Source: Pelomyxa schiedti
Taxonomy: Eukaryota > Protista > Evosea
DNA: 49,706 nt
NCBI GenBank assembly: GCA_020536535.1
Contig: JAHLWZ010000912.1
Location: 1-49,706 of the forward strand
Direction: 5' to 3'
The first letter of the stretch is position 1. The number at the start of each line of letters is the position of its first letter. The notes beneath the pieces are model-generated. The model searched no databases. It had not been told where the DNA came from and worked only from the letters and a program-made list of their open reading frames with translations. The position numbers and the translations under genes were made by a program. Shown here one piece after another: positions 17,257 through 28,700 of the stretch.

Positions 17257-19012
17257 ATGTCTGGCGTCACGGCGGTGATTTTCGACATGGACGGCGTACT
17301 TGTGGACTCGAAGCGGGCGCATTTCGAGTCGTGGGCGAGGCTGGCCACCGAACACGGGCTCGTGCCGCCGACCGAGGCCGAGTTCGAGGCCACGTTTGGC
17401 CGCACGTCCGTCGATGTGATGACCAAAGTGGACGCTCCTAGGTGGAGCGCTGCTCTGCAGACCCACACCGCGCAGCAATTGGATGACAGGAAGGAGCAGC
17501 TGTTTAGGTGAGACTGATATCATTCTCTCTCTCTCTCCATCTATCTCTCCCTTTTCTTCGATGGAACTTAATGACGATTGTGGCGCTGGGGATGGTGGGG
17601 CAGGGATGCGATGGAGAATAACTTTCCGGCAATGCCACGTGTGGATGAGGTTGTGGGGGCACTTCATGGCAGTGGATTGGCTTTGGCAATAGGGTCATCG
17701 GGCCCTCCTATGAATGTCCAACTGGTCCAAAGAAAGCTCCCTTGTGGGGGGTTGTTTCATTGCATTGTCGATGCTTCACAAGTTAGTTGCAGCAAACCAC
17801 ACCCACAGGTTATCCATGTCCTCGTCGCCTCTTACCTATTGTACTTTTTCAAACATCTTAACTCAGGTTTTCTTGACAGCTGCAAGCAAGTTGGGTGTAC
17901 CACCTACCAAATGTTGTGTAATTGAAGACGCCTGTGTTGGCATACAGGCAGCAAGGCGTGCTGGTGTGAATACTCGCTCACTTTCAGTATTCCTCCTTAC
18001 TCATTCATCTCAGGAATGTTTGCTGTGGGAGTTGTGGGCACAACTACAAGGCCGGAATTAATTGCAGCCGGTGCCCATCTTGTCGTTGCTGCACTCGGTG
18101 ACATTACACCAACTCTTATCCAGAATCTTTGCCGTGTCCCACGTAGACGGTTCCCATACAGACCATACAGTCTTGGACACCGAGGCAAATCCTTTGCTCC
18201 CTAAACTTGTGCTGACGTACCATGCCGACTAAAGCGTACATCAGGTGCTAGATCACATGCTCCGGAAAATACACTGCTCAGTTTCAAGCAGGCACTGGCA
18301 TTAGGTTGTGACAGGGTTGAATGTGATATAAGGCTTACACGGGATAATCAGTTAGTTGTAATTCATGACGCTGCGGTAAACAGAACCTCAAACGGTACTG
18401 GACTTGTGGTTGCATTAACACTTGAGGTTTTGATGAGCTATTGTTATTAAGACGGCTTATAACTACACAACAGGAATTGCTTGCATTTGACTTCGGGTCT
18501 GGCGAGAAGATACCAACGTTGGACCAACTGCTTGAACTGGTGAAACCTTCAGGCAAAACTCTGCACATCGAATTGAAAGGTTTTTTTTTCTTCTTCACCT
18601 CCGGTCTATTTACTTTCCACTCCAACTAGAGCCTGGTTGTGAAGAGAAGATGGTTGCAGCCATATCTCGGCATGGCATGAGAGCCCAGATCCTTGTGATA
18701 AGCTTTTTCACTGAGCTACTCTCAATCACCAGGAAGCTCGATCCAGGAATTGCCTGTGCGGCCCTGTATTCTGGCCATCCCCCTTCTCCCTCAGAGGCAC
18801 AGTCTCTTGGTTTCAAGGAAGTAGGATGTTTCCACAACGAGATTGATGCTCCATATGTTGCTGATGCACACAGACATGGTTTGCTGGTTCATTGCTTTAA
18901 TCCTGATACCCCAGACCAAGTGAGGCGTGCAGTTCAAATCGGTGTTGATGGTATTGGGTCAAACAAGCCAAAGATGCTTATTGACACTCTAGACGAGTTG
19001 TCAAAAATGTAA
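17257..19012 (+). CDS. HAD-superfamily phosphatase (beta-PGM/CbbY-like) fused to glycerophosphodiester phosphodiesterase (GDPD)
   Basis: HAD motifs IFDMDGVLVDS, IGSSG, SKPHP, IEDACVGIQAARRAG. No stop before the GDPD motifs GHRG|ARSHAPENT, VECDIRLTRD, VVIHD, IPTLDQLL, HIELK, GVDGIGSNKP. Confidence 0.85.
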
Positions 19013-20416: not shown

Positions 20417-22626
20417 TCAAGGGTCTGATACAAGCTGATCCCAGTCTGCCACTGTGAGTAGGAATTGCCCCAGTGTGTAGGAGCTGCACACCGTGGTTCC
20501 GTTTACCAATGGCCAGAGGATCCTGAGCATAGGCCTGCTGATGTCAGCCGGTCGGAAAAGGCTGAGAACCTCCCGCCACTGATCTGCAAGTCTTGCTGGA
20601 GCCTTTTCGCGCGGACCGATACTGAACTCTATGGTACTCAGAACCTGCATGTGCATGAGGAGGAATATCCAAATATAGAAAAAAAAAAATACATACCGAA
20701 GTAAGGCTGATTTGGAACTTGTGCCAGACCCACAGTGCACAGCCTCGCTTATTGTTCTCGATCAATCCAACAAAGAGAGAAGCTGCGTCCTCCAGGTTGG
20801 AACTGTTAATATCAAATTCTGACACTAACCACTTGACAACTTTGCTGGAGAAACATGTGTACTTTGTCAATATACTTGAAATTTCTTCCCGGGAGAACGC
20901 AGCGAGTGACACCAACTCCTTTACCTGTGATAAGGTACCGAATGTCGAGAATGATTTCAGCACAGTAAGGCACCACACCTGTGGCAACACCCCGGCTTTC
21001 AGGAGTGACAAGCCGGAGTTGATGAGTGTAGGACTGTCCTGCTGCACCTCTTCAGCCATGGTCGGTGAGAAAGTCACATCGCACTTGCCACCGCACTTGT
21101 CAAATAGCCACTTTATGCAATCGCGCTGGGTTAAATAACCTCTGTATTTGTGTATCGGAGCAAACACATAACACACAGGTTTCAGAAAAACGACTGGCTT
21201 AGCACTGTATATCCGGAGATAGAGCGCAATAAGCCACTCAACGATCTTTTCGTTCTGCAAACAAATTGCCCTCTGAAGTGAATCCAAAAGTATCTTAGAG
21301 CTAGGGGTAGTGGCGGTGTCAATAAATATCTTTTGGTACAACCACTTGACAAAGTTCAAGTTGTCTTCTCTGTTTCCACACGCAGCAATGAGGTCTTTGG
21401 AACTAAACGTGACAGATTTCTCTTCATTGAACCACACTGCAAGTTCAATACTTGGAAACATCTCGCACCAGGCAGTACAAATCTCCTTGCTCTCTTTTTC
21501 TCCAGACTTTGTAAAAATCCACTTGAAAACTTCTGGGTGCTTTGGTATTCTCGAGTCATCGACAAAGAAGGATCTAAATTCGAGATGGAACTTATTTTTG
21601 AGCCACTTGCACACTGAGAGAACTTCATCTGCTGATGATTTTTTGCAGCGGGCAGCTGAGACACAGACCACCGAAGAGGAGTGTCTCCACTGGGGGAATG
21701 CCTCCACAAGTCTCTTAATGTCCTGAACTCCATGCTTTGGCTTTAGCAAAGAGCTTACTTCCCAATTTGTGTCTGCAAATGAGAACTGGCTTGTGAGCCA
21801 TAAAAGGAGGTCCACTTGAACACCAATGATTGCATTCAGCAGTGCCCGCCGGTTCCACCGTTCCTCATCAATGGGAAATGCGGAAAGTACCCACTTGAGC
21901 ACATCCAGGTGCCCTCCTTTGCATACTCCTTCAATTAACTCAATAATGCCCCGCTGACTCCACACTTCGTTAACGAACACTCTAATGTCATCATTAGACA
22001 ACGCCAGGTCGCGGGTCAACTTTCATATGGTAAGTCAGATTGCCAAGGGAAAAGAAAATGAGAACCTTTGGATAGTCAGCTCCAGAAGAGGAGTAACCGG
22101 CAGGGAAGAATTTGGCAGTAGGGAGCAGCCACTTAACTGAGCCCCAAGTTACACCCCTCTCCACAAAAGACCTGGCGTCCTCCAAATGCCCACCATGACA
22201 CAGTCCAACTAACACAGCAACACTCTCCTTGGCTTCCCTCATTGCCTTACGTGTCCTGCTACCTAAGATATCACCACAGTCACTGCTGTTACTGTTGCTA
22301 TTGACATTGTGATTGTGGTGTAACAGCCACGAGGCACAACGTGGGCACCTTGACATTGCACAGCACCTCAGAGGGAAGTAGTGCGAAATTGGGCAGTTGG
22401 TGCGGTGACGTAACATCGACGTCACCGCACTGCAACACAGCGCCACGAGGGGGAACATGGCCTCGCCGACGCTCAGCAACGTGATTATGGGTTTGGCGGT
22501 CACCCTAACCACCACGTCGCGGTCCGTTGGAGGGCACAACCACGGGCGCACGACGTTGTCCCACACAAGACGGGACACTCTCAGCACCAGTTCTTTCTGG
22601 GACTCCTTGTGTGTTGCCGTGATCAC
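20417..22626 (-). CDS. Degenerate ankyrin-like repeat protein (expanded lineage-specific family); start codon not identified
   Basis: Repeated motifs LCHGGHLEDA, VCKGGHLDVLKWVLS, AACGN..NLNFVKWL, FSSKVVKWLVSEF. Three exons. Confidence 0.65.
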
Positions 22627-22717
22627 GGAACGATCAGTTTTTTTGTGATGTCACGTAAAGTTGTACTCCCTTCCAACGGAAAAAATTTTTGAAAGGATAG
22701 TGGTTGGTGGGGTTTGA

Positions 22718-25700
22718 TTATCTGGAGGCCAAGGCGGCGAAGAGCCACTGGAATCCTTCAATAAGGCCATCACCGGATATGGCGCAGCATCCTTGTATGT
22801 ACCACAAGGGGTGTGAATGGCCGAATATCTTGTTGAGCTCGAGGCGCTGGGCAACTTCATACACACAAAGGGCGTGTGGCAAGTCCTGCTTGTTGGCTTG
22901 CGGTGATTGGAAGTTAGTTATGGGAGGGAGGGACCGTTATTGATATATATCATTAACAATTACTGAAAATGGTGCTTAGTTGAGGGAATATTTTAGACAT
23001 ACTAAAAATGAGGATTGGGACCCCACGGAGCAGTTCCTCGTGTGCCACCTGGTTGTTGTTATGAAATTGGGATAGGAGGCTAATTTATAATTTCTTACAG
23101 TTGCAAGATGATGTCTGCATTCTTCCATTCGGTCTTGGTCCTCAGAATCAACGACCCATATATAAGCGACTGTATTCTGGTAGTCTGTGCCGTTGATTGA
23201 GTGGGGATTTTGAATGACAATACACTACTTACAGTGCTTCCACAAGGCCCTTATTTTATCCTCTGTATCGTGATTACTTCAATGTTTGATTTTGAGGTTT
23301 GTTTTATTTTACATGCCTCCTCCCACATCCTTTAGGGTTTCAGTTTTGTTTTAAATTTGATGGATCATGTACCCATATGACCATGTTCCAATTCTTGTAT
23401 TTCACATACTCAACACCTTAAACATTCAATCCAACAAAAATGAAAGAAGGTGCAAACAAAAGCCAATTTGGGGTACAACAGAGGTATCTGGCTCAAGCTT
23501 AAGCCGGTAAGTGATAGTTGTTTTCCCTAGTTGATACTGAAGACGAAGAGGAACTGTGGTTTTTTACCTGCTGCATCGAGGCCATGCATTAGGATCCGAT
23601 TTTCAGCCTGGGAGGAAAATATCTTAGGTACCCAACTCAATGTCTTTGAAAGAAGGGATCCCCACAGGCTGGCATTCTCAGGCGGCGCTACAGAAGCGAT
23701 CTTTACCTTCTTCATAATTTCCATTGCTTGGCTTTATTCAAGTTAAATCTTATTTAAGCCAATAACTAATTGACTTGGATCCGAATGAAGTCTTAGAAAG
23801 CTTCTTTGACTCTCGGAGTGCAGTACGAAATATTTGCTTCCAATCACCTAATGGTCTAAAGCCGGTGGGCACGGACTTTTCTTAGAAATGAAACATACCC
23901 AATTTGAACGGAAATCATAGCCTTCTTGATTCGTGGATCCCAGTTTTCCCTTTGATACAACGCCTGCCATATCTGGTCGTCTGATGCTACACAGAACAGA
24001 GAACGGCATGCTTGTGATACTGAGCAAAGTGCTTCATAATCAAGAAATCCGATGATGGTGCTTTTTGTGGGGAAAAACAAGTGGGTTTTAAAGCATTTCT
24101 TTCTTTAACATACAGCAAAACGTCAATGGGGAATACACTGAAATTCCCTTGTTTCTTGTGAGAAAAAAGAAATGGAAACAAAATTACCTAGCGATACCAA
24201 AGAAGTGATCCGTCTACTAGTAAAAGACGGAGTGGGCAATCCAATATCTTCCTCAACGACACATGCACTGGCAAGCCATCCACATGCGATATTCTTTATT
24301 TTTTTGCTTGACAGAAATGTTATCACAGTCGGAGTATTACGATCACATCTGTCTCCAAGACCTGAAGAAAAGTCAGTGGAAGAGGAGGGGGAAACTGATA
24401 CCAAGTTGCCCTTGGTCATTCGAGCCCCATGCAAAAAGAATGTTGGTTTCTGTTAGTGCAAGGGAATGAGCACTTCCATATGCACCGCCTGCGGCAATTT
24501 GACTTATCCGTTCTGATTTCAATGACACTACGGCCCTAGGAAGATTGCAATTGATATTATCTCCAGTGCCAAGTTGCCCCCTCCTGTGCAAGACCTAAAA
24601 AAAATTACCTAGAAGGACACTGCATACTTATTTTCCCCAAAGGTAAACAATAATCCAGTGTCTGTTGTAACAAGAGAGTGTTTGTCACCACATGCGACCC
24701 GGGTTAGCCTCGTCCCATTGAAATAAGAGACTACTTGTGGAGTTGCATGAGAGCACTGGAAAGGTCAGTTCAGAAGGATTATTACAACGCAACCTCATCA
24801 CCATGCCCTAGTAGAGTGACTACATCATTTACAAAGTCAAAATGGTACCAAGTTGGCCCTGGATTCCAGATCCCCAACTGTAAAGTTGTCCAGTATCAGA
24901 GACTGCCAGGGAGTGCTTCCCCCCTGCTGCCACAAACGTAATTCGAACCCCAGGTTCGAAGATGCAACCTGTAAATTCAAATCTGTACTATTTCAGACTT
25001 TTCCAAACCAGGGATGTAGACCTTTCTTTACAATCACCAACACCAAGTTGACCCATCTCGTTTGAGCCAATAGCATGCAGTTCTCCATTTTTAAAAACAA
25101 CCAACGTGTGCAGTGCACCAGCAGATATTTGCACTGGTTCCTTGTCTAAATAAAAAGAGATTGGAATCAGTCTCCTCGTCAAATTTTACAATACATCGTA
25201 CCAGGATAAAAACGAGTGGGCTTCAGTACGGCAACCCGTACAACGTGAGAGGGATCAGTAGCACAAGGAGCATCAAGCCTCCATCTGCATATGCACCTAC
25301 AAGATGGAGACATAGCCCAAGTGTTTAATGCCCCACAAGAGACACTATTCAAAAAGAGTAAGTACTTACAGGGGGACAAGAAAAAAAAAAAAAAACCTGG
25401 TAGTTTCAGATGCGCCAAAGACAAGCCACTCCGGACCACCAATAGCATACAATCCACCCCAAGAGAACACTTGTCCATCAATCAGAGCACTCATGTGCCT
25501 AGTAAATTTTGTTCAGGATAGAGTGGAGCCACAAAGTAGCCACAACAAGCTTCTTCCTATTCCCCAATGTATATACACACACATATCTACCCCCAAAGCA
25601 CACAGACCAGACAGGTTGCCAAGTTCACACGTACCCGCCACCACAAGATATGCACGTGATTGCATGAGAGGGTCCCGAAACATCCTCGACAAGCACAGGC

Positions 25701-25942
25701 ACGCACGAGCACGTCCCTGGTGTCGCTCTTATGCCTGTCGTGGCTGAGTCTGTTGCTGTTGCCGTTGCTGGGGTAGCTGTGGATGTGGGGAGCGAGGTCC
25801 CAAGTTGGCCGTGGGAGCCGCACCCCCACGTGAACAACGACGAAGATGTAACGCCTGTTTGTTGTGCTCCGTCCCCAATACCCGCAGCAGGGGCTACTGC
25901 TGACAGCACAGAGGTTGGCAACCCTTGTTCGACGTGGGTCAT
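22718..25942 (-). CDS. RCC1-repeat / F-box / Arf-family GTPase fusion protein
   Basis: RCC1 repeats (FTWGCGSHGQLG, ISAGALHTL, GSNEMGQLG, AWGSNDQGQLG, IACGW). F-box (FPIDVLLY|IIGFLDYEALCSVSQACRSL). Arf domain (RILMHGLDAAGKTT, WDVGGEDKIRALWKHYY, WVVDS, ANKQDLP, WYIQGCCAISGDGLIEGFQWL). Stop at 22718. Confidence 0.8.
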
Positions 25943-26070
25943 TGAAAGGCAAAACAAAAACGGCAGTACGGTCTGTCACTGTTTCCTTTTTAGTAACTTA
26001 AAGAAAAAAAGCAGCTGGTTTTTCTTTTTCTTTTATTCATTTACTCTGGAATACGGAGGAGACAAACAGT

Positions 26071-28467
26071 TTAATGGCCGTGAGTTGGTGTGGTGGTAGC
26101 GGGCTTGCTGGACTTGAGGATGATTCTGCCGTCGACGACGAAGATTCCTTGGCCTTGCTCGTAGACCATGATCGGGTTGGCGTCAACCTCGGCAACTTCG
26201 TCGCTGAGGTCGGTGACGAGCTGGGAGATGCGGGATACGGCGACAGCGAGGGCCTCGACGTCGCGGGGCTTCTCGCCACGGGCGCCAGAGAGCATTGGGT
26301 AGCACTTGATCTCGGGGAGCATGACCCTGGCCTCCTCGACGGTGAAGGGCGCAACCCTGAAGGTGACGTCCTTGAGCACTTCCACGAAGATTCCTCCCAT
26401 TCCGAACATGACTGTGGGTCCGAATGTGGAGTCGTTGACAGAGCCCACAATGACCTCCTTGCCCCAGTCGGCCATGCTGCAGACTATGATGCCGTGAATG
26501 TCGGCGGCGGCGTTGTAGGCAAGGGCGTTCTCCCTGATCTTGTTGTACCAGAGGCGGGCTGTGGCGTCGTCACGGATGTTGACCTTCACACCGCCTGCAT
26601 CAGACTTGTGGATGATCTATAGGGGATAGGTAAGACATCTCATCGTTAGAGAGGAAGGAGCGGTACCTGTGGGGAGACGATCTTCATCACAACGGGGTAG
26701 CCAATTTCGTTGGCCTTGGCAACAGCATCATCCTCGGAGGTGGCGACCAAGAACTTGGGGACTGGCAAGTTGTAGGCAACGAAGACAGACTTAGACTCTG
26801 GCTCAGTGAGTAAATCACGGCCCTGAGCACGGGCACCAGCGATGATGGCCATGGCCTTAGCCTTTGAGGTCACGGTGTCGGGGAAGGGTGTGAAGGGGAC
26901 GTAAGGTCGAGCCTGGAATTGACCGTACTTGCGAAGAGCACCGAGGGCGCACATTGTGCTCTTGGGATCGGCGTAAACGGGGATGGCCTTGTCCATGAGG
27001 TAGTAGCTGGCATCGACACTGAGTTTGCCACCAACATAGCAGCAGACCATGGGCTTCTTGATGGGAGAGTTCTTGTAAGCACGCTCGATGGCCTCAGAAA
27101 TGGCCATGGGGGTTGTAACGGCGGTCTCGCAGTAGAGAACAGCAATACCGTGTACCCATGGGTGCTGAAGAGCAATGCCAATTGAATCTTCATATCCCTT
27201 AGCACCGGAACCACCAGTAATATCGACTGGGTTCTTAGGGGAGCCGAAGCTTGGCATGCATTTGTACAACAAATCCTAGGAACGTTAGGTGGAAAATGCT
27301 AGAGTGAGGGATCGAGACCTGGAGATCTTGGGGAGCAGACTTCAGAGGAATACCACAGAACTCTGCGGAATCTGTTGACAAGACACCAATACCACCACCA
27401 TTGGTAATAACCAACACGTTGTCACCAAGCATGGGTGGCTGCATAGAAAGAGCCTGGGAGGAAACCAAGAGTTCTTCAAGGTCCATAGCTCTGATTACTT
27501 TAGCCTAAGAAGAATGAGCACCACAGGTGTCAGAAATAATAACAAACCTGGTTGAATGCGGCATCGTAAATCTTAACGGCACCTGCAAGAGAGCCAGTGT
27601 GGGAGGCTGCGGCAGCTGCACCGTGGGCGGAAACACCGCTCTTAAGACCAATAATGGGCTTGGTGCATTGTCGACCAGCATCAATGAATGCGCGGCCGTT
27701 CTTAACACCTTCAACGTAGAGGGCGATGCATTGAGTGCTCGCGTCATGAGAGAGGTAGTTAATGGTATCAGCGAAGTCCACATCCGCCATGTTACCAAGG
27801 GAAACCATGCTGCTGCAGCCGAAGTGGCGCAGGAAAGTGGTACCATCCAAGGCAATGAGTAAAGCTCCACTCTGAGAGACCAAAGCTGTGCCACCACGGT
27901 ATGGCAAGTAGGGAGCAAAGCTGGCATTTGCGTTGCAGCTGTTCAGCAGGAGACCAACAATGTTGGGTCCAACGATTCTACCGCCAGAAGCGTGAGCAAT
28001 TCGAACCATCTCTTCCTCCTCAGCGTGGTTTCCTACCTCACTGAAACCAGATGTGATGACAACGTGACCCTTCACGCGCTTAGCAGCGGCTTCGCGGCAG
28101 CAGCCAACAACGAACTTGGCGGGAACTGTGTAGACAGCAAGGTCAATTTCTTCCAAGGGCACTTCACCAATGGTTCGGTACGCCTTGATACCATTGATCT
28201 AATTCACAGTTAAAAACCACTCAAAGCGTGATCAAACAGCAGAGTTCGAGATTGCATGTGGTGTGGCGGTGGCACCGAAAAAAACGAGGAGTCGACGAGT
28301 GGTCGATAGGAAAGTGTACGTACATCGGGTGCTGTAGGATTGATCGGGAAGAGTTTTCCGGTGTACTTGCTGTCAATCAAGTTTTGGACGACCAAGTTTC
28401 CGATGCTGTTGGGCTTGGACGAGGCACCAATAATCGCGATACTTGTTGGGTTGAAGATGCGGTCCAT
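26071..28467 (-). CDS. Acetate-CoA ligase (ADP-forming acetyl-CoA synthetase), fused alpha+beta subunits
   Basis: FNPTSIAIIGAS, ITSGFSE, IVGPNIVG, LVSQSGAL, SLGNMADVD, AAASHTGSLAG (phospho-His), ITNGGGIGV, NPVDITG, ATP-grasp GYPVVMK..HKSDAGGV, FGPTVMFGMGG, EVDANP. Strong codon bias. Confidence 0.95.
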
Positions 28468-28700
28468 GTGTTATGTGGCAAAAAAAAGTTGGTGCTGCTG
28501 CCGCTTACTTGGGAGATCTTGGGTTTTTTAGGTTTTATGTTATCAAAAAAGTAAAGTTTTAAAGCCGAGGAGAAAAAATTAAGATCGTGACGAAGCAACT
28601 GCAATTGCAGATATTTAGAGTAGAAATGCTAAATCTCTAAAGCAACATAATTGAATTCGTTCATTCAAATTAATTAATGGTCGTTCTGTCAGTGTCTGGC

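What the first reader, a model, noticed from the sequence alone, without database searches (positions are those of the whole stretch)
22718..25942. RCC1-propeller + F-box + Arf GTPase in one polypeptide
Exons chain RCC1 repeats, an F-box and a full C-terminal Arf domain, and I saw no separate gene start between them. An Arf fused to ubiquitin-ligase machinery is known in TRIM23/ARD1 (RING-type). An SCF adaptor with an internal F-box between an RCC1 propeller and an Arf domain is an architecture I do not recognise. It could couple membrane-traffic or GTPase partners to SCF ubiquitination. An amphipathic-looking helix (SLWGSLLSKTLSWVPKIFS) precedes the G domain.
Basis: partly seen in the sequence, partly recalled or inferred. 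Interest (0 to 1): 0.75.

Follow-up and report, generated by a model that had tools for sequence, protein, structure and literature searches.

The report
F-box adaptor with crippled Arf switch
This amoeba gene encodes one predicted protein that joins an RCC1 propeller, an F-box and an Arf GTPase domain lacking two key switch residues; it likely acts as a targeting subunit of a ubiquitin ligase, and the same domain combination was already tabulated for other amoebae in 2021 but, in the searches made here, never studied.

Summary
Confirmed. A 20-exon minus-strand gene (25942 to 22718) gives a 738-residue protein, identical to an annotated Pelomyxa schiedti protein: seven-blade RCC1 propeller, F-box, helical linker, Arf domain. 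RNA contigs support 12 of 19 introns and bridge RCC1 to F-box. The F-box-to-Arf join is not covered by RNA; it rests on an open frame, paralog conservation and a diplonemid transcript. The architecture is not new: the supplement of Vargova et al. 2021 lists RCC + F-box + Arf proteins in Mastigamoeba, Acanthamoeba and Thecamonas. New here: at least 8 paralogs in this amoeba; none of 10 family members keeps the switch-II glutamine (Arf1 Q71), against 78 of 80 control Arfs; this copy has also lost Thr48. Skp1 binding, nucleotide state and substrates are untested. One ancient family across Amoebozoa, apusomonads and Euglenozoa is neither rejected nor shown.

The parts
22718..25942 (-). Whole gene, 20 exons, 738 residues. 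Exons (low-high): 25635-25942, 25397-25498, 25202-25344, 25022-25145, 24849-24982, 24794-24807, 24628-24755, 24402-24583, 24188-24361, 24114-24147, 23899-24060, 23775-23855, 23568-23731, 23458-23526, 23373-23416, 23317-23329, 23233-23262, 23099-23184, 23003-23048, 22718-22896
   Evidence: Model; identical to P0001; 12 of 19 introns seen as joints in RNA contigs
24249..25846 (-). RCC1-like beta-propeller, residues 33-416 (exons 1-9), predicted complete seven-blade ring
   Evidence: Pfam PF25390 E 2.8e-63, PF00415; model aligns over 33-415 to HERC2 RLD2, Z 46.1, rmsd 2.1, 338 residues, and to RCC1, Z 45.2
23949..24145 (-). F-box, residues about 438-485 (exons 10-11)
   Evidence: Pfam PF12937 35.4 bits over cut-off 24.3; best solved-structure matches of the exon are beta-TrCP F-boxes, E 0.001, and 1fs1; four helices predicted but pLDDT only 55-72
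23671..23948 (-). Helical linker, residues 486-549, containing the two inferred introns 23856-23898 and 23732-23774 that join F-box to Arf
   Evidence: No RNA cover; 43-base GT-AG introns keep the frame open; linker 35 of 60 and junction 11 of 18 residues identical to paralog P0002
23614..23670 (-). Hydrophobic helix before the G domain, residues 550-568, in the place of the Arf N-terminal helix; internal, so no Gly2 myristoylation
   Evidence: Model residues 556-738 align to human ARF1 2-180; moment 0.55, shuffle p 0.24
22718..23613 (-). Arf G domain, residues about 570-738: G1 and G4 motifs intact; switch I and II altered
   Evidence: Pfam PF00025 E 4.1e-56; Z 23.3, rmsd 1.8, 178 residues to 1hur; 27 of 97 near-invariant Arf positions changed
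23468..23470 (-). Codon of Gln603, which replaces the G2 threonine (Arf1 T48); unique to this paralog among 10 family members
   Evidence: no other letter listed here in RNA or DNA contigs
23261..23317 (-). Codon of Glu626 (replaces Arf1 Q71), split by a 54-base GC-AG intron at 23263-23316
   Evidence: Joint seen in RNA contigs of X1, X2 and X3; alignment

Best explanation
The gene encodes one predicted 738-residue RCC1-F-box-Arf protein that likely works as the substrate-targeting subunit of an SCF ubiquitin ligase, with an Arf domain that is predicted not to cycle GTP normally and likely serves as a fixed binding surface. Shown: domain order, folds (as predictions), loss of Q71 in all 10 family members examined and of T48 in this copy, intact G1 and G4 motifs. 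Inferred: the F-box docks on Skp1-Cul1-Rbx1; the Arf domain, which lies C-terminal to the F-box and linker where most F-box proteins carry their substrate receptor, captures targets (plausibly Arf effectors or regulators, or unrelated proteins, as FBXO4 does with TRF1); the N-terminal propeller supplies a second binding surface for localisation or a second target; the internal helix may add weak membrane or protein contact but cannot be myristoylated. Expansion to at least 8 paralogs with diverging switch regions would diversify the targets.
For: Three domains above curated Pfam cut-offs in all 8 Pelomyxa paralogs found and in the diplonemid protein. F-box 35 of 48 identical between P0001 and P0002, G domain 93 of 166: the F-box is conserved, the G domain drifts. 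Position 71: E in 5, P in 2, G, G, A in 3 doubtful models, Q in 0 of 10; Q in 78 of 80 control Arf loci. Q71L is the GTP-locked Arf1 mutant and T48S lowers activation (PMC5540999, section 5 read). [quoted passage not shown] FBXO24, an F-box + RCC1 protein, co-precipitates SKP1, CUL1 and RBX1 (PMC10932545, passages). The 2021 survey reads F-box and BTB fusions as recruitment of ARF domains into ubiquitin circuits.
Against: No Skp1 binding, nucleotide binding, hydrolysis or substrate was tested. The F-box and linker are weakly modelled (pLDDT 45-72, pTM 0.54). Loss of Q71 is not specific to this family: 2 of 80 control loci (R, K) and two other stored Arf proteins, P0271 (R) and P0274 (E), lack it. 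The five E residues are all from one species and may be one inherited change. TRIM23 has measurable GTPase activity in its ARF domain (PMC12075517, passages) although, as I recall, it also lacks this glutamine, so Q71 loss need not mean a dead enzyme. Nine of 10 family members keep T48, so the family as a whole may still sense GTP. The Atlas scores are under 0.9, a level that shuffled proteins reach a third of the time. The F-box-to-Arf splice is not seen in RNA.
Confidence: 0.5

Rival explanations
1. SCF adaptor in which the RCC1 propeller is the substrate receptor and the Arf domain is still a nucleotide-controlled switch that places the ligase on membranes, as the ARF domain does for TRIM23.
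For: G1, G4, D67, G70 and the W66/Y81/F51 positions are kept in P0001, and T48 in 9 of 10 family members. The helix sits where Arf1's membrane helix sits. The RCC1 domain of FBXO24 binds its substrate MIWI; HERC2 RLD2, the best structural match, is solved with a peptide motif bound (entry title). TRIM23 GTPase activity moves it to autophagosomes.
Against: This copy lacks both T48 and Q71 and has a rewritten switch I. No N-terminal glycine is available for myristoylation. Helix moment is below the mean of canonical Arfs (0.55 against 0.67) and above shuffles in only 1 of 10 members.
Confidence: 0.27
2. The F-box is not used for SCF; the protein is a scaffold that joins a propeller and a divergent Arf.
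For: PF00646 scores 19.2 bits, under its 20.5 cut-off, for P0001; the F-box of P0273 is not seen by Pfam; the F-box is internal.
Against: PF12937 passes its cut-off in all 8 Pelomyxa paralogs and PF00646 in the diplonemid protein; 73 percent identity between paralogs, more than the G domain.
Confidence: 0.1
3. The propeller is a built-in nucleotide-release factor for its own Arf domain or for other Arfs, like RCC1 on Ran or HERC1 on ARF proteins.
For: HERC1 RLD1 may act as GDP-release factor for ARF proteins and RLD2 interacts with ARF1 (review PMC6692442, passage). The propeller has the RCC1 fold.
Against: The fold is shared by many non-GEF proteins (UVR8, RPGR, HERC2); sequence identity to RCC1 is only 25 percent; an exchange factor is of little use to a switch that has lost T48.
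Confidence: 0.08
4. Two genes: an RCC1-F-box gene ending at 23750 and a separate Arf gene starting at the ATG at 23724.
For: No RNA contig crosses 23709-23983; without the splice at 23774 the frame stops at 23752-23750, and an in-frame ATG follows. The Pelomyxa paralog models come from one annotation pipeline.
Against: Only 25 bases lie between that stop and the ATG; the ATG is followed by Glu, 47 residues before G1, unlike the Met-Gly start 23 residues before G1 of canonical Arfs. Residues upstream of the ATG are conserved in frame in paralogs. The diplonemid protein P0272, a Trinity transcript ORF, has all three domains.
Confidence: 0.05

Closest known systems
RCC + F-box + Arf proteins of Vargova et al. 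2021 (PMC8358228, supplementary table 1): MbaArf1e, MbaArf1f (Mastigamoeba), AcaArf1g (Acanthamoeba), TtrArlX1 (Thecamonas); EgrArf1h (Euglena, listed with RCC1 only)
   Same: Same domain set; the visible first 400 residues of MbaArf1e, MbaArf1f and EgrArf1h show the same insertion in the penultimate blade and the same GW motif in the last blade as this protein (read by eye).
   Different: Acanthamoeba and Thecamonas proteins add Kelch repeats. The table cells were cut at 400 residues, so their Arf domains could not be seen. The paper's main text does not mention RCC1, glutamine, Q71 or hydrolysis, treats such fusions as generally lineage-specific, and reports no function.
FBXO4 (Fbx4), animal SCF adaptor
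   Same: F-box followed by a small-GTPase-fold domain that engages the substrate (review passage); first Atlas hits for the F-box + Arf half, one mollusc cluster with PF00025 on 65 percent of members.
   Different: No RCC1 propeller in the Atlas clusters; its G domain is far more degenerate (recalled; the primary structure papers were not held), whereas this one is about 48 percent identical to ARF1. Common ancestry was not tested.
TRIM23 / ARD1
   Same: C-terminal Arf1-derived domain in a ubiquitin-ligase protein.
   Different: RING-B-box-coiled-coil ligase with its own catalytic RING; here no such domains were found and the link to ubiquitin is an F-box.
FBXO24
   Same: F-box and RCC1 domains in one SCF adaptor, shown to bind SKP1/CUL1/RBX1; an Atlas hit at 0.76.
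   Different: No Arf domain; F-box precedes RCC1 (order recalled).
Stand-alone Arf1
   Same: Fold, G1, G4, length and N-terminal helix position.
   Different: No myristoylation site; T48 and Q71 replaced; 27 of 97 near-invariant positions changed.

Membership tests
F-box proteins (SCF adaptors) | F-box motif | tested here: met
   PF12937 35.4 bits, cut-off 24.3; best PDB matches are F-box proteins; PF00646 just under cut-off
F-box proteins (SCF adaptors) | Binds Skp1 and joins a Cul1-Rbx1 ligase | not tested
F-box proteins (SCF adaptors) | Separate protein-binding domain for substrates | tested here: inconclusive
   Two candidate domains are present; neither is shown to bind a substrate
ARF-family domain | Arf fold and family profile | tested here: met
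   PF00025 189.6 bits; Z 23.3 to human ARF1 over 178 residues
Canonical Arf switch (Arf1 type) | G1 P-loop and G4 NKxD motifs | tested here: met
   Positions 24-31 and 126-129 match the consensus
Canonical Arf switch (Arf1 type) | G2 threonine (T48) | tested here: not met
   Gln603; T in the other 9 of 10 family members
Canonical Arf switch (Arf1 type) | G3 glutamine (Q71) | tested here: not met
   Glu626, splice supported by RNA; Q in 78 of 80 control loci
Canonical Arf switch (Arf1 type) | N-terminal myristoylated Gly2 | tested here: not met
   The domain is internal, starting about 550 residues from the N-terminus
Canonical Arf switch (Arf1 type) | Amphipathic helix before the G domain | tested here: inconclusive
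   Right position; moment 0.55 within the canonical range 0.48-0.77 but shuffle p 0.24
RCC1-like domain proteins | Seven-blade RCC1 propeller | tested here: met
   PF25390 214.9 bits, cut-off 150; predicted model aligns over 338-341 residues to HERC2 RLD2 and RCC1, Z 45-46
RCC + F-box + Arf proteins of Vargova 2021 | Domain set RCC1, F-box, Arf | tested here: met
RCC + F-box + Arf proteins of Vargova 2021 | Orthology (one clade with the tabulated proteins) | not tested
   The tabulated proteins did not come back from the searches as stored sequences and table cells were cut; shared blade motifs seen by eye only
One ancient RCC1-F-box-Arf family (Pelomyxa, diplonemid, unnamed P0273) | Monophyly of propeller and Arf domains | tested here: inconclusive
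   Propeller tree: 6 of 7 Pelomyxa rows group at SH-aLRT 96, three rows unresolved; AU test p 0.556. Arf tree unresolved with long branches
TRIM23 / ARD1 | RING, B-boxes, coiled coil | tested here: not met
   None among Pfam matches at E 0.01
FBXO4 | Homology of F-box + G domain to FBXO4 | tested here: inconclusive
   Atlas feature score 0.82-0.83, lead only; FBXO4 not among the rows shown, which were filled by RCC1 and Arf entries

The most novel reading that the evidence does not exclude
RCC1-F-box-Arf proteins are one ancient, overlooked family of SCF adaptors, shared by Amoebozoa, apusomonads and Euglenozoa and so possibly present in the last eukaryotic common ancestor, in which an Arf1 copy was stripped of its catalytic glutamine and turned into a locked bait that delivers Arf effectors or regulators to ubiquitination; animal FBXO4 would be the fully decayed end of the same design, and this paralog (T48 and Q71 both lost) an intermediate.
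Probability: 0.22. Interest if true: 0.72.

Novelty: new member of a known kind. Interest (0 to 1): 0.42.

Why it matters
The architecture is on record only as entries in a supplementary table, with no function. If the reading here holds, it links membrane-traffic GTPase surfaces to SCF ubiquitination in protists and offers a series of natural intermediates, from near-canonical Arf (14 of 97 conserved positions changed in P0202 and P0210) to a double switch mutant (this copy), for studying how a GTPase becomes a ligase substrate receptor as in FBXO4. If the family proves to be one clade across Amoebozoa and Euglenozoa, it adds a candidate to the list of ancient ARF-family proteins that the 2021 survey took for lineage-specific fusions. 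Homologs tabulated in Acanthamoeba and Euglena make it testable in culturable cells.

Tried and rejected
No whole genome was held, so paralogs were counted from protein searches only; 8 is a lower bound, and P0002/P0003 and P0210/P0269 are close pairs that could include alleles. A second laying of RNA contigs at 85 percent likeness did not bridge F-box to Arf; low-depth contigs cannot show absence. The profile-free search of 1.84 billion representatives was swamped by long RCC1-repeat proteins: 5 of the 150 rows were family members, so it says nothing about the family's range. The metagenome scan returned 80 Arf loci, none with an F-box and none with RCC1 on the Arf frame; they served as controls. 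One of its two search patterns contains the T48 motif, so T48 conservation in these controls is partly built in; Q71 is in neither pattern. Complex prediction of propeller against Arf domain gave no answer (score 0.00, alignment not used): no evidence either way. A profile of Pelomyxa propellers alone did not pick out the diplonemid or unnamed member (ranks 204 and 255 of 265; last two blades 155 and 117); adding the F-box lifted them to ranks 2-3, which reflects architecture, not ancestry. The blade signature (8 of 10 family, 0 of 262 other RCC1 proteins) was written after seeing the family and the controls are mostly bacterial-type and HERC proteins, so it is suggestive only. The Arf tree finished only in quick mode. 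The wide structural search was not obtained; the second-look search was used. Primary FBXO4 structure papers were not held. Rejected: TRIM23 membership; a wholly new architecture; an assembly chimera (one DNA contig of run X4 spans 22697-26138, though it may be the window's own source).

Full report
Gene structure. The region is a eukaryotic gene on the minus strand with many short introns. Three-frame reading and RNA joints gave a 20-exon model from ATG 25942 to stop 22718: 2217 bases, 738 residues, one terminal stop. A search with the F-box exon alone returned one protein, P0001, named by NCBI as an ADP-ribosylation factor subfamily protein of Pelomyxa schiedti; it matches my model at 738 of 738 positions. 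That annotation is itself a gene model from this contig, so it agrees with but does not prove the splicing. Twelve of 19 introns are seen as joints in RNA contigs, among them a GC-AG intron at 23263-23316. All three RNA runs are one sample of one study, depth is low, and they are contigs, not reads. Inferred introns are 38-52 bases, like the supported ones (40-56, plus two of 106 and 136).

Is it one polypeptide? RCC1 to F-box: yes; one contig joins exon 8 to 9, and an overlapping one joins exons 9, 10 and 11. F-box to Arf: no contig covers 23709-23983. The split alternative needs a stop at 23750 and a new start at 23724, 25 bases apart, and gives an Arf that begins Met-Glu 47 residues before the P-loop, whereas 56 of the 80 control Arfs begin Met-Gly 23 residues before it. 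The linker is 35 of 60 identical to paralog P0002 and the 18 residues around the second inferred intron 11 of 18. A diplonemid protein from a transcript assembly has all three domains. I put the fusion at about 95 percent.

Domains. Pfam finds RCC1-like 36-415, F-box-like 443-485 and Arf 563-733, and the same families on single exons. The AlphaFold2 model (10-sequence alignment, mean pLDDT 71.6, pTM 0.54) is confident for the propeller and the Arf core, weak for F-box, linker and both switch loops; domain packing should not be read from it. The propeller aligns over its whole length with HERC2 RLD2 and RCC1 (Z 46.1 and 45.2), and residues 556-738 with human ARF1 2-180 (Z 23.3, rmsd 1.8). The F-box exon's best solved matches are beta-TrCP F-boxes (E 0.001).

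Family. Searches found 8 Pelomyxa proteins with this architecture, this one included, one from the diplonemid Flectonema neradi (P0272) and one unnamed metagenome protein (P0273), whose F-box is not seen by Pfam and only weakly by a Pelomyxa-only profile (E 0.0022). From I left out P0271 and P0274, which have Arf but no RCC1, and P0275, a cluster mate of P0273. Searches are word-limited or were swamped by RCC1 repeats, so the range is unknown.

Prior record. Vargova et al. 2021 (PMC8358228; I saw passages, section 13, and rows of supplementary table 1 with sequence cells cut at 400 residues) names F-box and BTB fusions of ARF domains as recurrent recruitment into ubiquitin circuits. Its table has 12 F-box and 5 domain-column RCC entries: RCC + F-box-like on MbaArf1e and MbaArf1f, Kelch + RCC + F-box on AcaArf1g and TtrArlX1, RCC1 on EgrArf1h. 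So the architecture is on record. The main text has no occurrence of RCC1, glutamine, Q71 or hydrolysis. Four searches for a study of this architecture found only that paper; subscription journals are mostly outside the library, and supplements of other papers may hold more. The scan's own notes held nothing on this sequence, none with all the words, and one unrelated note in this genome.

The Arf domain is altered at its switches. Numbered on canonical Arfs, G1 and G4 are intact in P0001, but T48 is Gln, N52 Cys, Q71 Glu, A125 Thr, and residues 40-46 are rewritten; 27 of 97 near-invariant positions differ. Q71 is absent from all 10 family members: E in five Pelomyxa proteins, P in P0272 and P0273, and G, G, A in three whose models look garbled around switch II. 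Among 80 control loci 78 have Q (77, plus L076, mis-parsed there and corrected), one R, one K. P0271 (R) and P0274 (E) also lack it, so the change is not unique to the family, and the five E may be a single event. T48 is lost only in P0001. In Arf1, Q71L is GTP-locked and T48S lowers activation (PMC5540999, section 5); that T48 binds magnesium and the gamma-phosphate is from my own knowledge. The behaviour of E or P at 71 is not known from these calls.

Mechanism. I infer an SCF adaptor. The domain C-terminal to F-box and linker is where most F-box proteins hold their substrate receptor (established knowledge), and here that is the Arf domain. [quoted passage not shown] The Atlas ranked FBXO4 clusters first for the F-box + Arf half of two paralogs, at 0.83 and 0.82, a lead only. 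The F-box is better conserved between paralogs than the G domain (73 against 56 percent), as expected for a constant ligase dock with a variable binding surface. The main rival keeps the Arf domain as a localisation switch, as in TRIM23 (PMC12075517, passages), with the propeller as receptor, as in FBXO24 (PMC10932545, passages); it fits the nine members that keep T48 better than it fits this copy. A cis exchange-factor role has a precedent in HERC1 (PMC6692442, passage) but no support here. The helix before the G domain is in the right place, cannot be myristoylated, and is no more amphipathic than its shuffles in 9 of 10 members.

Age of the family. The architecture occurs in Amoebozoa, an apusomonad and Euglenozoa. 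A small insertion in the penultimate blade followed by a GW motif in the last blade is found in 8 of 10 members and 0 of 262 other stored RCC1 proteins (pattern written after the fact), and by eye in three tabulated proteins. In a propeller tree of 9 members (P0003 left out) and 36 others, six Pelomyxa rows group at 96 and the other three are unresolved; holding all nine together is not rejected (p-AU 0.556, likelihood 3.3 higher). The Arf tree of 85 rows is unresolved with long branches. One origin is open, not shown; gene transfer or repeated fusion remain possible.

Verdict. It is a new member of an architecture that is recorded but unstudied. What adds interest is the family-wide loss of Q71, the further loss of T48 here, the expansion in this amoeba and the parallel with FBXO4. 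Interest 0.42.

Noticed in passing
window 23317-23525: One RNA contig (X1) is spliced at both flanking introns but retains the introns at 23330-23372 and 23417-23457, which X2 and X3 contigs show spliced: partial splicing or intron retention in the exons for switch I and II.
   Followed up: no
window 23317-23329 and 24794-24807: Two micro-exons of 13 and 14 bases; the first is RNA-supported, carries part of the G3 motif and is followed by a GC-AG intron. Paralog models P0002, P0003 and P0265 look garbled at this spot and may be mis-spliced there.
   Followed up: partly
window 26071-28470, minus strand: Upstream neighbour with CoA-binding, succinyl-CoA-ligase-like and ATP-grasp domains, consistent with an ADP-forming acetyl-CoA synthetase; it ends about 130 bases before the start codon of the RCC1-F-box-Arf gene.
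   Followed up: partly
window 20544-22650, minus strand: Downstream neighbour: two long frames, one with a weak ankyrin match (E 0.00075, under cut-off), no other Pfam family.
   Followed up: partly
window 17714-19012, plus strand: HAD-like hydrolase frame followed by a glycerophosphodiester phosphodiesterase gene.
   Followed up: no
P0269 (paralog, 1083 residues): Carries about 400 extra N-terminal residues with no Pfam match; may be a fused gene model or an added domain.
   Followed up: no
L076:3-1913: An Arf with intact Q71 at the end of a 637-residue open frame with a long Gly/Ser/Trp-rich low-complexity N-terminal part.
   Followed up: no
PMC8358228 supplementary table 1, row EgrArf1h: Listed with RCC1 only, but the visible sequence after the propeller looks like an F-box by eye, as in the diplonemid protein; the table may undercount the architecture.
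   Followed up: no
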